Under the pieces are notes generated by a model. That model saw only the letters and a program-made list of their open reading frames with translations, made no database searches and was not told the origin of the DNA. A program made the translations under genes and the position numbers. Positions 40,281-58,863 of a stretch of DNA of 64,000 nt are shown piece after piece. Source of the stretch: Octopus vulgaris (taxonomy: Eukaryota); contig OX597834.1 of the NCBI GenBank assembly GCA_951406725.2, positions 10,354,001-10,418,000 of the forward strand. Reading direction: 5' to 3'. Each line of letters opens with the position of its first letter. The stretch's first letter is position 1.

Positions 40281-40549
40281 CATTAACCACCAACGTAAGG
40301 GGTATTAGCCATCTGAATGTGGCTAGCCACTGGGGGGGGGGGGGGTTACTGATGCTTTTAGCCCCAGGCGATCAACGTCACCAGAAGGACCTTAGACACT
40401 ATCTCAGTGCCCTTGTGTTATTTGCAAAGGGAGGTCATCCTCCCTCGAAGACCCGAGTACTACATACGGACTATAGTTTCAAGGTAATTGCCTCTCGTCA
40501 ACGCATGGTAAGCGCCGGTCTTCGACGAAGGAGTCTCCTTGCAAATAAC
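40281..40549 (-). mobile_element. Second, divergent retrozyme-like element (structural homolog of 57565-57879)
   Basis: Same order of motifs downstream of the hammerhead rod (GTGTC(T)AAGG, hairpin, GGGCTAAA(T)AGC, hairpin with CATTNAGN loop). Flanked by an 11-bp direct repeat AACTATTTAAT (40270-40280 and 40547-40557). Confidence 0.6.
40463..40507 (-). ncRNA. Type I hammerhead ribozyme, C3U core variant
   Basis: Minus strand reads CATGCG-TTGACGA-GAGG caatta CCTT-GAAA-C tata G-TC-CGTATG: stem I CAUGCG/CGUAUG, stem II GAGG/CCUU, palindromic stem III ACTATAGT, GUC site. Sits at the tip of an imperfect inverted repeat 40417-40549. Confidence 0.8.
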
Positions 40550-40862
40550 TATTTAATGTTTTTCACAGCAGCCAGTGTCAATTGTTATTTAATCATTGTT
40601 TTCGTGAATTGGTTTATTGTAAACGAGAATGGAAGAAGCGGAACATGTGTGTCTATATGTAAGGAGTTAGTCCGCATTACTCCATAAAGAGCTTGAGGCT
40701 GATTTCTCGGTTTTCTTTGGCGTAGGATTACTCGGTTTTGACAGCTGAGTGTTCTGGACAGACGTGAAATAAAGTGGTCTGCTCAAGAACACAATGCATC
40801 GCTCAGTCTAGGAATCGAAACAGTTATCTTACGAACATGAGTGTAACACCTTAACCACTAGG

Positions 40863-45364: not shown

Positions 45365-45824
45365 TATTTAAATATATATATATGATATATATTTAAATAT
45401 ATATATATATGATATATATTTAAATATATATATATATATGATATATATAAATTAGAGAAAAACCAGTATTATGCAATTCAAACAATGATAGACATAAACC
45501 AAATCATAAATAAAAAAATATATTTTAAAATATAACTAGAACACATATATATATATTCGTTTTCGCATGTTATAATAGACATAATGGGAACTCATAAAAA
45601 TATTTATTAATAAAATATTTCTTAACAAGTTAATTTTTTTTCTTAAATATTTAATATTCTCTTAATATATAAAAGCGAGACACCATTTTAAACGCAACAT
45701 ATATTGCTCATTACATTAAATATAAAGAAATCATTATATTATATAAATATTGATATGTTTTGTGTTTATGCATTATCTTGTGCCCTTACTGATTTTTCGT
45801 ATCACATTTTTTTTTTTCGTCCAG

Positions 45825-46042
45825 GATCTGAAGTTGCTCCCCGAGCTGTTTCAACCCGGATTGTCAGCGGAATTTGGTGGTTCTTCACTCTAATAATGAT
45901 ATCCTCTTATACGGCGAATTTAGCCGCCTTCTTAACCATTGACCGGTTGGATACCACGATTGAGAGCGTCGAAGATCTTGCCAAACAGACGGATGTACAC
46001 TACGGGACATTGGAAGGGGGATCATCTAAACAGTTCTTCGAG
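45825..46042 (+). CDS. Ionotropic glutamate receptor (kainate-type/non-NMDA) internal exon: end of pore loop, M3 helix and start of S2
   Basis: Translates (G)[72 protein letters not shown], containing the iGluR hallmark SYTANLAAF. Acceptor ttttttcgtccag|GA (phase 1), donor GAG|gtaaca (phase 0). 218 bp. Confidence 0.97.
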
Positions 46043-46237: not shown

Positions 46238-46323
46238 GCCTCGGTAGCGCAGTAGGCAGCGCGTCAGTCTCATAATCCAAAGTTATCGTCGAGCCATCGG
46301 GAGTTCGATCCTCACCCGGGGCA
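46238..46323 (+). pseudogene. Elongator tRNA-Met(CAT) pseudogene with a 13-nt insertion
   Basis: GCCTCGGTAGCGCAGTAGGCAGCGCGTCAGTCTCATAATC...GAGTTCGATCCTCACCCGGGGCA. Acceptor stem GCCTCGG/CCGGGGC and anticodon CAT at 46271-46273 are intact. The 3' side of the anticodon stem is mutated, length is 86 nt versus about 73, and a T9 run follows. Confidence 0.85.
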
Positions 46324-47215
46324 GATTTTTTTTAAAGGCGGTGCTCCAGCATGGCCACAGTCAAATGACTGAAACAAGTAAGCGAGTATAGGTGATTAAG
46401 GCGGCGAGCGGACAGAAACGTTCGCACGCCGGTCGAAATGCTTAACAGTATTTCGTCTGCCGAGGTCAATTTTACCTTTCATCCTTAAAATAAATTACAG
46501 ACGTTCTAATTTACCAAGATTATATAAATAAGCTAGAATTATTCAAAATTCTATTGAAATCTCTCATACATCATTAATCCGTTGCAATTATGATCTATGT
46601 ATTCCCTTATACTAATGTATTTATCAGATGGGGTAAAATTGTCCAATACTGATTGGAAGTTATGGCATAATGCAGACGGAAATTTCTCATAAATGTTAAA
46701 TTTTCTTTACGAATACAGCGTAATCTCTGAAAATTTTCGATTATATAAGGTTTATTTCCATTTATAATGCGTATGGTTTTTAGGGAGAACGTAACTAAAT
46801 CATTCGTCAGTAAATTCTTCTCTTTTACTTGTATTCGTACCGTGTAAGCGTTCTCATTCCAAAGGCCAATGAAACGAAAATTGGGTACAGTGACAGGTCA
46901 TGTTCATAGTCTGCTCTTTTAATGTATAGCAATATAAGCGCACTGCCCTCTTAAGACACGGGCACACTAGGCCTAGGTGTCTCGCAGATATACGGGCCTA
47001 AATTGGATCTATGTCTGCTGTGGCTAGTTGTTGACAAATGAATAATATAGGGTTCATTGCGACGGACCTCGACAAAGTTTACGTCTACAAAATTCACTCG
47101 CAAAGTATTGGTCAGCCAGGGCTTTAGAAGGAGACGTTATACCAAGTGCCGCCCATCAGGACTGAATCTGAAAACGCGTAGTTGCGAAGTAGTCGTCTAT
47201 GCAGCAATGTGTTTT

Positions 47216-54820: not shown

Positions 54821-55009
54821 ACACACACGCACACATATATGAATGAATAATGATAATACACGTACACACACGCCCTCATGCACAGGTACATATATATTTT
54901 GTTTGCGCTTTGTTCATACATCTTCCACTGTTTCATGAATATCATTTTAATCATTTACCTGGAATTCTGCAGTGTTTTATTGAATATTATTCAAATATAT
55001 TTTTTCCAG

Positions 55010-55235
55010 GATTCTGATGTCCCAACATATAAAAAAATGGCAAACTTTATGCAATCCACGACACCGTCTGTGTACGTCTCCTCTTCGCGGGAGGCAGTAC
55101 AGCGAGTACTCAAAGAGAATTACGCTTATCTTGGAGAATCAACATCAATTGATTACCAGGTGCAAAGAAACTGCCAACTTATGCAAGTTGGTGGTTTGCT
55201 GGATTCCAAAGGATACGGAATTGCTACTCCAAGGG
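55010..55235 (+). CDS. Same iGluR gene, S2 ligand-binding domain exon
   Basis: Translates DSDVPTYKKMANFMQSTTPSVYVSSSREAVQRVLKENYAYLGESTSIDYQVQRNCQLMQVGGLLDSKGYGIATPR(G). Acceptor tttttccag|GAT (phase 0, matching the previous donor), donor AGG G|gtaagt (phase 1). 226 bp. Confidence 0.97.
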
Positions 55236-55489
55236 GTAAGTAAGATACGCAGTTTCTGGTCCTTTTTTACAAACTATTCTTCCTCATCGCCTTCTACTTC
55301 TGTGTTAATAATAAGAACATTAACGATAGTTGAGATGCAGATAAAGAAAGAACAAAAATTAGTGGATAACGAAATTGCAGGCAAATTTATTTACATCACT
55401 CTACAATTCCCGTTTTTAATACTTTGAAATTGTACAATATTTAAACTGTGGCTCATTTATACACGCACAAACAAAACCCACACACACTC

Positions 55490-57405: not shown

Positions 57406-57517
57406 TCACATTAAGTTGATAGTATGCAACCACTCTATCGCTCCAACACCGCACATATCTCTGAGATATTTAGAAATTTAATATTTCTGAATTTGGTGAT
57501 CAGTGAATAAACTTCAC

Positions 57518-57573
<56 letters not shown>

Positions 57574-57879
57574 TACGAAGTCTAGACACATATCTTCAGC
57601 TAGCAGGCCTTGCTACTCTAGACTGATGATGGGCAAGACCCAGAAACATGTATGTCTCTAGATGCAGGCCTAGCTGTTGGGGCTGTTTGTCTCCCCTTCG
57701 TAAATATATAAGGATATAGGAAATGTGTCAAGGCCGGCAGGAAGCGTCGATGCTTCCTAGGGCTAAATAGCGGTGGTGTCATTCCATTTACGGGACTGTC
57801 ACATTAAGTTGACAGTATACAACCACTCTATCTCCACCACCGCACATATCTCTATGAGATATTTAGAAATTTAATATTT
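57406..57879 (+). mobile_element. Retrozyme-like small non-coding element: about 393-bp unit plus about 80-bp terminal redundancy, containing the hammerhead
   Basis: Imperfect direct repeats at 57406-57486 and 57799-57879 (tcacattaagttga...gagatatttagaaatttaatattt). Between them: (TA)n, the hammerhead rod and several hairpins. No ORF. Confidence 0.65.
57617..57662 (+). ncRNA. Type I hammerhead ribozyme with intact catalytic core, sense to the iGluR intron
   Basis: TCTAGA-CTGATGA-TGGG caaga CCCA-GAAA-CAT gt ATG-TC-TCTAGA: stem I TCTAGA/TCTAGA, core CUGAUGA, 4-bp stem II, GAAA, short stem III, GUC triplet (predicted cut after C57656). Stem I extends imperfectly out to about 57565/57710. Confidence 0.88.
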
Positions 57880-57915
57880 ACGAATAAATATATAGATTAT
57901 AATTTACTATCATAT

Positions 57916-57963
57916 GCCTTGTTAGTGGATTTGTGAGACGGAAACTGAAAGAAGCCTGTCGTA

Positions 57964-58014
<51 letters not shown>

Positions 58015-58238
58015 GTGTTTGTTTGTGTGTCTGTGTTTGTGTGTCTGTGTTTGTCCCTCTAGCATTGCTTGACAACCGATGCTGGTGTGTTTGTGTCTCC
58101 GTTACTTAGCGGTTCGGCAAAAGAGACCGATAGAATAAGTACTAGGCTTACAAAAGTATAAGTCCGGGGTCGAGTTGCTCGATTAAAGGCGGTGCTCCAG
58201 CATGACCGCAGTCAAATGACTGAAACAAGTAATAGAAT
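57916..58238 (+). mobile_element. SINE family A copy, 5'-truncated
   Basis: Begins at gccttgttagtggatttg and runs to the tail. Confidence 0.88.
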
Positions 58239-58597
58239 ATGTTTATGTATACATGGCTGTTCCTTTCTGTAATTACAACAAAATTTGAAGGTAATCAATA
58301 AATGAAAGAATAATGGTATAAATTATCCTACTTTATCAGGTATTAATCATTTACGAATGTCTATTATATTTAAAATGTTATTTCTTTCGAGACTGTATAC
58401 ATTTCAGCACTTTTGACAATAATCTCGCTCCATCATTCTAGGTGTAGTAAGCCTCCTTTAGATTCAAACTCCGATTTTGGTGAACAGTTGTCAGTTACAA
58501 AATTCTAGTGTATAATAGTTTAGCCAAGATAATCGCTTTTGCTTTTGTTACGTTGCAAATAATTATTGTGTCTTTTCTTTTGTTATATTTTAAACAG

Positions 58598-58863
58598 GAT
58601 CTCCTTATCGGGATATGATCTCAGAGAAAATATTATTTCTTCAAGAAAGACAAGAAATTAGCAAGCTTTACACCAAATGGTGGAAAGAAAAAGCAGCTAA
58701 TAAGTGTGACAATGAGTCCAAAGGAAAGCAAAACGCGAACGAGCTAGGCCTTCAGAACGTTGGGGGCGTTTTCGTGGTGCTTATGGCCGGAGTGGTCGCT
58801 GGCACAATTATGGCTATTTTTGAATTCTTGTGGAAGTCATGGAGAAATTCCAGAATTGACAAG
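58598..58863 (+). CDS. Same iGluR gene, end of S2 plus M4 transmembrane exon
   Basis: Translates (G)SPYRDMISEKILFLQERQEISKLYTKWWKEKAANKCDNESKGKQNANELGLQNVGGVFVVLMAGVVAGTIMAIFEFLWKSWRNSRIDK. Acceptor taaacag|GA (phase 1, matching), donor AAG|gtaaga. 266 bp. GSPYRD and LGLQNVGGVF resemble kainate-type subunits. No downstream C-terminal exon was recognised in the window. Confidence 0.96.

What the first reader, a model, noticed from the sequence alone, without database searches (positions are those of the whole stretch)
57406..57879. Terminal redundancy (about 1.2 monomer) suggests insertion from a circular or multimeric RNA template
Seen: about 80-bp imperfect direct repeats 393 bp apart bracket the hammerhead. 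The repeated segment includes hairpin 3, which is also present in the 40.3-kb homolog, so it is element sequence and not a target-site duplication. Inference: a circularly permuted unit of about 345 nt plus (TA)n was copied slightly more than once, as expected from rolling reverse transcription of a circRNA or from a truncated tandem array.
Basis: partly seen in the sequence, partly recalled or inferred. Interest (0 to 1): 0.75.

Follow-up and report, generated by a model that had tools for sequence, protein, structure and literature searches.

The report
Penelope-type retrozyme copied past one turn
The 87-base repeat is the overrun of a small protein-less jumping element with a predicted self-cutting RNA motif, one of hundreds of copies in this animal genome, which a Penelope-type enzyme likely copied from a fixed internal start on a wrap-around RNA (probably a circle, untested); the kind is known, but the copies give a clean footprint of how it is pasted in.

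Summary
The repeat is real (87 bp, 89.9% identical, 393 bp apart) and is element sequence, not a target-site duplication. The locus is 1.23 turns of a ~360-nt non-coding unit carrying a minimal type I hammerhead, a dispersed family of hundreds of copies. Copies are not randomly permuted: 82 of 100 arms end at two fixed 3' sites ~55 nt apart, 5' ends vary, and 38 of 39 classifiable two-armed insertions pair one long with one short end, often inside 7-14-bp target duplications. That is the Penelope 'tail' signature; intact Penelope-like RT-GIY-YIG elements exist in the genome but share no DNA with the unit. 98 of 100 arms run through the ribozyme cut site with no pile-up or scar, and 17 of 100 run past the fixed end into the preceding unit, so the template wrapped around. 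Segments of one insertion share variants, pointing to one source. DNA cannot separate a circle (~0.5) from an uncut multimer (~0.37); no usable RNA data. The 40.3-kb homolog is a 65%-identical sister family with the same ends. Verdict: new member of known animal retrozymes; the scan noted the same footprint on other DNA of this genome.

The parts
57406..57492 (+). Upstream partial copy (unit 227-314): the overrun into the preceding unit, equivalent to a pseudo-LTR; 5'-truncated at 57406
57487..57520 (+). Linker (unit 310-343, hairpin TCAGTGAA/TTCACTGA) lying beyond the fixed long 3' end; present only in copies that read through the unit boundary
57521..57571 (+). Internal (TA)n of the unit, expanded to about 50 nt at this locus
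57572..57703 (+). Long rod (unit 1-51 paired with 86-132) forming extended stem I of the hammerhead (predicted)
57623..57656 (+). Minimal type I hammerhead core, predicted cut after GUC at 57656; stem II UGGG/CCCA; short stem III with near-palindromic loop (consensus ACAUGCAUGU self-duplex -13.3 kcal/mol)
   Evidence: activity not tested
57794..57813 (+). Hairpin (unit 222-241) conserved in the sister family, just 5' of the short start site
57823..57832 (+). Short fixed 3' end (unit 251-260, ACAACCACTCT), in an AC-rich single-stranded loop; inferred RT start site 1
57830..57885 (+). Tail of about 55 nt ending at the long fixed 3' end (unit 309-315); inferred RT start site 2, used by this copy
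57799..57885 (+). Downstream copy of the repeat; shares the minor allele G231A with the upstream copy (19 of 236 family segments carry it)
40291..40568 (-). Sister family B copy (unit 36-310 of a 353-nt unit), hammerhead variant TTGACGA..GAAACTATAGTC at 40501-40469, ending at B's short end

Best explanation
This is a 1.23-turn copy of a 360-nt non-coding hammerhead element (non-LTR retrozyme) that a Penelope-like RT-endonuclease likely wrote into the genome by target-primed reverse transcription, starting at a fixed internal site on a wrap-around RNA that is probably a ribozyme-made circle. Shown: dispersed family, two fixed 3' ends, variable 5' ends, seamless passage through the cut site and the unit boundary, one long plus one short end in two-armed insertions, TSDs, shared variants within an insertion. 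Inferred: the enzyme is a PLE (about 0.9); each cut DNA end primes at a different one of the two start sites on the same source RNA; the RNA is circular rather than an uncut multimer (about 0.55 of that). This copy started at the long site, ran once round and stopped 87 nt into the second turn; no second arm is present.
For: 3' ends: 48 short + 34 long of 100 arms chosen only for holding a 19-mer next to the cut site (first 100 of 287 matches). Two-armed insertions: 38 long+short, 1 long+long, 0 short+short among 39 classifiable (expected 19.5; p 7e-11), family B 13 of 14. TSD >=7 bp in 26 of 74 two-armed (control 1) and 10 of 91 one-direction loci (control 0). These match the two RT start sites = 'tail', AT-rich target, both strands extended, in PMC11167929 and the tandem/inverted/tail structure in PMC8557442. 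Intact 781-aa RT+GIY-YIG ORFs in G000. For a circle: 98 of 100 arms cross the cut site, 1 ends at 84-88, and indels there are below average, although the core and compensated stems are kept between families 65% alike; subfamily alleles agree within an insertion (A: tandem 53/61, opposite arms 118/153; between loci 20%) and 12 rare variants are shared by both arms; no hammerhead-to-hammerhead dimer of this family was found as a source (0 matches) and no host 5' flank is shared among 85 one-direction copies apart from LINE insertions; mussel retrozymes of 350-390 nt accumulate as circles.
Against: No RNA evidence for expression, cleavage or a circle. In vitro the anole PLE uses uncleaved RNA and its hammerhead is dispensable; only 1 of 9 Xenopus dimers cleaved. 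The autonomous 4.7-kb PLE here also shows a 247-nt partial tandem (L179), so an overrun does not need a small circle. In family B rare variants are often carried by 2 of 3 or 3 of 4 units, and L138 differs between units at subfamily sites, which a single circle does not explain without later local duplication. No DNA homology links the unit to any of the 35 PLE-bearing stretches examined. The dimer search needed exact 11-mers and spacing 346-376, and has low power.
Confidence: 0.5

Rival explanations
1. Same Penelope-type priming at the two fixed sites, but the template is a linear, uncut tandem transcript from a multimeric source locus; the repeat is an ordinary pseudo-LTR from 5' truncation in the upstream unit.
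For: Uncleaved RNA is the dominant substrate for the anole PLE; minimal hammerheads cleave poorly as monomers; autonomous PLE copies here are partial tandems too; family B has arrays up to 3.5 units and 27 hammerhead-to-hammerhead matches with some unit heterogeneity.
Against: No dimer found for family A, longest run 1.49 units in 166 loci, no transduced host flank; daughters could only be as long as their source, so arrays would erode over subfamily turnover (inference).
Confidence: 0.37
2. Template is a ribozyme-cut linear monomer; the RT reaches its 5' end at the cut site and jumps to the 3' end of the same or another monomer.
For: The long rod holds both ends together; single junctions at the cut site in L145 and L058.
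Against: No excess of 5' ends (1 of 100 at 84-88) and no indel scar at the junction (A 0.0016 vs 0.0070 per nt; B 0 vs 0.0048).
Confidence: 0.06
3. Locus-specific accident: two independent insertions or a local DNA duplication produced the repeat.
For: The two copies differ by about 10%; the unit holds its own (TA)n target; some family B arrays show signs of later local duplication.
Against: The upstream piece is in exact phase through the linker and TA run; the linker cannot come from a sub-unit copy; both pieces share G231A (8% allele); each differs from the consensus by only 3-4% plus small indels; the same overrun recurs at 22 or more loci.
Confidence: 0.04
4. Mobilised by a LINE (for example the Tx1-like element found joined to the unit) or a Helitron-like DNA rolling circle rather than a PLE.
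For: LINE 3' ends abut unit position 20-34 in about 10 of 100 arms.
Against: Those LINEs are insertions into the unit with 15-25-bp duplications of unit sequence; no poly(A) or shared LINE 3' tail at the element's ends; two start sites and inverted arms are PLE traits.
Confidence: 0.03

Closest known systems
Metazoan non-LTR retrozymes (Cervera and de la Pena 2020, PMC7229834; sections 14, 17 and passages read)
   Same: Non-coding 350-390-nt class unit, type I hammerhead, low GC, highly self-paired (z -9.9), dispersed and partly tandem, co-existing with PLEs; tandem cDNA from a circle by a PLE RT was proposed there.
   Different: Family A is almost all sub- to 1.5-mer, no full dimer found; stem III is of the minimal, palindromic-loop type; cleavage and circle not shown here; the passages read did not describe fixed start sites or two-armed insertions.
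Penelope-like elements: PAc of Anolis (Frangieh et al. 2024, PMC11167929; main text read) and PLE structure in Craig et al. 2021 (PMC8557442; passages)
   Same: Two internal RT start sites bounding a tail, AC-rich loop at the start site, AT-rich/(TA)n targets, partial tandems, inverted 5'-truncated arm, hammerhead upstream of the start sites, cut site read through.
   Different: No ORF; tail about 55 nt (family B 46) against 30-40; the near-absolute one-long-one-short rule per insertion (38 of 39) is sharper than 'often only at one end'; no sequence homology to an autonomous partner found.
Retrozymes as non-autonomous PLE derivatives (Li, Clavereau, Pollet 2026, 10.64898/2026.07.22.740005; abstract to discussion read, supplements closed)
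   Same: Same conclusion of PLE dependence.
   Different: Their evidence is co-occurrence and pLTR homology in vertebrates; here it is insertion anatomy, without pLTR homology.

Membership tests
Non-LTR retrozyme | Type I hammerhead in the unit | tested here: met
   Core motif and stems I-III by sequence and constrained fold; no Rfam hit
Non-LTR retrozyme | Non-coding unit of 150-450 nt without LTR, PBS, PPT | tested here: met
   345 nt + (TA)n, closes on itself; no ORF >=100 aa over it
Non-LTR retrozyme | Tandem copies with two hammerheads | tested here: inconclusive
   Family A: 0 exact matches at spacing 346-376, up to 1.49 units; sister family B: 27 matches, up to 3.5 units
Non-LTR retrozyme | Self-cleavage in vitro | not testable with these tools
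   needs run-off transcription
Non-LTR retrozyme | Expressed as a circular RNA | not testable with these tools
   no run on record as RNA, contigs only
Penelope-like element (structure) | Two fixed 3' ends with optional tail | tested here: met
   82 of 100 arms; homologous sites in family B
Penelope-like element (structure) | Partial tandems and inverted 5'-truncated arm | tested here: met
   74 two-armed of 166 loci; 22 or more over-length runs
Penelope-like element (structure) | AT-rich or microsatellite target, TSD | tested here: met
   flanks; TSDs 36 of 165 vs 1 control
Penelope-like element (autonomous) | RT + GIY-YIG ORF | tested here: not met
   no ORF; tblastn of 6 PLE proteins hit flanks of 7 loci only, as separate pieces; so at most a non-autonomous passenger
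Non-autonomous PLE derivative | Sequence homology to the pLTR of an autonomous partner | tested here: inconclusive
   none in 35 stretches around GIY-YIG hits, out of 6136 candidates

The most novel reading that the evidence does not exclude
A dimeric Penelope-type enzyme loads on one ribozyme-made RNA circle and primes the two ends of a staggered DNA cut at two different fixed sites, rolling past the ligated ribozyme junction from both; the terminal redundancy and the one-long-one-short rule are the fossil record of circRNA-templated, two-ended retrotransposition.
Probability: 0.35. Interest if true: 0.7.

Novelty: new member of a known kind. Interest (0 to 1): 0.42.

Why it matters
How animal retrozymes get back into DNA has been proposed (circle plus PLE enzyme) rather than shown. 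The copies give quantitative genomic support for the PLE part and define exact start sites (unit 257 and 314) and a per-insertion asymmetry that an existing in vitro PLE assay can test with circular versus linear RNA. The terminal redundancy by itself is the ordinary PLE partial tandem and does not prove a circle.

Tried and rejected
Rfam: no hammerhead model hit; E-value hits are TA-repeat noise. RNA: no RNA holder listed; four runs laid were contigs only and cannot show ends, strand or circles. Autonomous partner: a recalled Pfam accession was not in the library; GIY-YIG search found intact PLEs, none homologous to the unit; the two family-B-like hits beside PLEs are separate insertions. A shared upstream sequence first read as the partner's 3' UTR proved to be Tx1-like LINEs inserted into the unit. 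Pile-up of 5' ends or scars at the cut site: none. A-to-G or T-to-C bias among shared rare variants (RNA editing lead from e1-8662707): no clear bias in 17 (A) and 42 (B) variants. Core-position conservation within family A is not significant on its own. First run of the mapping script failed on gap costs and was repeated. Literature: 'hammerhead ribozyme'+'octopus' and 'retrozyme'+'cephalopod' returned no listing describing this family; subscription papers, Repbase/Dfam and bioRxiv supplements were not searchable, so it may be catalogued there.

Full report
Observation. Between the copies lie a 34-nt linker, (TA)25 and a 308-nt body with a hammerhead core at 57623-57656. Rfam has no matching model; the assignment rests on the CUGAUGA/GAAAC/GUC core, stems I-II in a constrained fold and a short stem III. 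The window is an intron of an ionotropic glutamate receptor gene (Lig_chan on the 45.8-kb exon; flanking exons read by eye).

Family. The body has 3306 first-look candidates in G000, the best 40 at 90-96% identity; a 19-mer has 287 exact matches. Mapping loci on a circular reference shows a closed unit of 345 nt + (TA)n in which the linker follows the end of the body. The window copy covers unit 227 to 309/313 of the next turn, 1.23 units. The repeat is therefore element sequence. The 40.3-kb homolog is a colinear sister family B (353 nt, 65% identity, same hairpins, core TTGACGA..GAAACTATAGTC with fully changed but paired stems), with arrays up to 3.5 units.

Ends. In 100 arms chosen only by a 19-mer just 3' of the cut site (the first 100 of 287, contigs C1-C7), 48 end at unit 243-263, 34 at 301-318 and 18 elsewhere; 5' ends are spread smoothly. 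Family B has two ends too, the short one at the homologous position. Among 166 distinct family A loci (duplicates and four segmental or paired duplicates dropped; gathered by several queries, some selecting the long end), 74 have two outward-pointing arms; of the 39 with both ends at a fixed site, 38 pair long with short (expected 19.5 from the marginals, p 7e-11); 35 have one or both ends elsewhere. Family B: 13 of 14. TSDs of 7-14 bp were found in 26 of 74 two-armed and 10 of 91 one-direction loci against 1 and 0 in shifted controls; none at the window locus. So the family is not freely permuted, and neither end is the ribozyme cut site.

This anatomy is that of Penelope-like elements. PMC11167929 (main text read) shows a PLE protein cutting and extending both strands of AT-rich DNA and starting reverse transcription at two internal sites in an AC-rich stem-loop, the interval being the 'tail'; cleavage by its hammerhead was dispensable. 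PMC8557442 (passages) describes partial tandems, inverted truncated copies and a tail often at one end only. Here the short site lies in an AC-rich loop of the predicted fold. G000 holds many intact 781-aa RT+GIY-YIG ORFs with a CX4CX2C motif before the nuclease (Neptune/Nematis type by the passage), but none of 35 stretches examined shares DNA with either family. The partner is inferred, not identified.

Template. 98 of 100 arms cross the cut site, 1 stops at 84-88, the stopping rate there equals its neighbours, and indels at the junction are rarer than average: the template was not a cut linear monomer. 42 of 100 reach the TA run, 17 cross the long end into the previous unit, 7 exceed one unit (lower bounds, since LINE insertions interrupt some). 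L022 (1.45 units) and L094 (1.48) sit inside TSDs. Segments of one insertion come from one source: subfamily alleles agree in 53 of 61 tandem and 118 of 153 opposite-arm comparisons in A (20% between loci), 291 of 322 and 216 of 241 in B (17%); 12 rare variants in A and 6 in B are shared by both arms, against 158 and 166 rare variants seen in one segment only (later mutations). The two window copies share G231A, carried by 19 of 236 segments.

Circle or multimer. For a circle: a conserved ribozyme whose junction is nevertheless always intact; no hammerhead-to-hammerhead dimer of family A (low power) and no run above 1.49 units; no transduced host flank among 85 one-direction copies; molluscan retrozymes of this size are mostly circles (PMC7229834 section 14), and section 17 proposes this very cycle. 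For a linear multimer: the PLE in vitro result, weak cleavage by minimal hammerheads, partial tandems in the 4.7-kb autonomous PLE, and family B arrays in which rare variants mark only some units. I put the circle at 0.5, the uncut multimer at 0.37. RNA data could not be brought to bear.

Novelty. The class is known, PLE dependence was argued in a 2026 preprint from co-occurrence and pLTR homology, and the redundancy itself is the standard PLE partial tandem. What adds value is the sharp two-site, one-long-one-short footprint and the seamless junction, which make the circle hypothesis directly testable. Other agents of this scan reported the same footprint for related families in this genome (seen after my own counts; not independent support). 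Two paper searches found no description of this family; repeat databases were not available. Interest 0.42.

Noticed in passing
L279, L281, L282, L283, L288, L290 (e.g. G000:C1:117841499); unit positions 20-50: LINEs of L1/Tx1 type (APE, RVT_1, zf-RVT, zinc knuckle; clade name recalled) and a ~1.65-kb ORF1-only relative insert about 30 nt upstream of the hammerhead core with 15-25-bp duplications. For the ORF1-only element 25 of 30 top 3' ends scored as followed by family A or B (one is a spurious TA match; two more show a hammerhead by eye); for the RT-bearing group 9 of 30. The site lies 20-35 nt downstream of the TATATA run in both families. Already noted by the scan (e1-8669911, e1-8669681).
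   Followed up: partly
window 40291-40568, minus strand: Younger sister retrozyme family B (1786 candidates, top hits 93-98% identical), arrays to 3.5 units, core variant with U at position 3.
   Followed up: yes
L179:268-4960 and relatives (G000:C6:133343500-133349000): Intact, recent PLE with an extra upstream 479-aa ORF, 781-aa RT+GIY-YIG, 3' end in (TA)n, a ~38-nt tail variant (L182) and a degenerate minimal hammerhead-like motif about 65 nt from its 3' end (seen by eye).
   Followed up: partly
L322, L324, L327, L331, L336, L340, L182:284-378, L184:5322-5501: Further diverged hammerhead families with the same layout appear beside LINE ends and PLE loci; the genome holds a radiation of such units.
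   Followed up: no
L199, L222, L235, L262: Recurrent inverted-arm junction at the base of the long rod (TATATA at unit 133-138 with 355-360), suggesting the two cDNAs join through complementary stem sequence.
   Followed up: no
L058:1672-1790; L145:1143-1202: Pieces that end exactly at the GUC cut site and continue with other sequence (a diverged relative in L058); possible rare use of cleaved RNA ends.
   Followed up: partly
window 45800-46030, 54857-55243, 58600-58800: Exons of an ionotropic glutamate receptor gene; the 57.4-kb element is intronic on the sense strand.
   Followed up: partly
window 57914-58239 and 46238-46462: High-copy SINE-like repeats; a tRNA-like head scores 38.5 bits at 46238-46323.
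   Followed up: no
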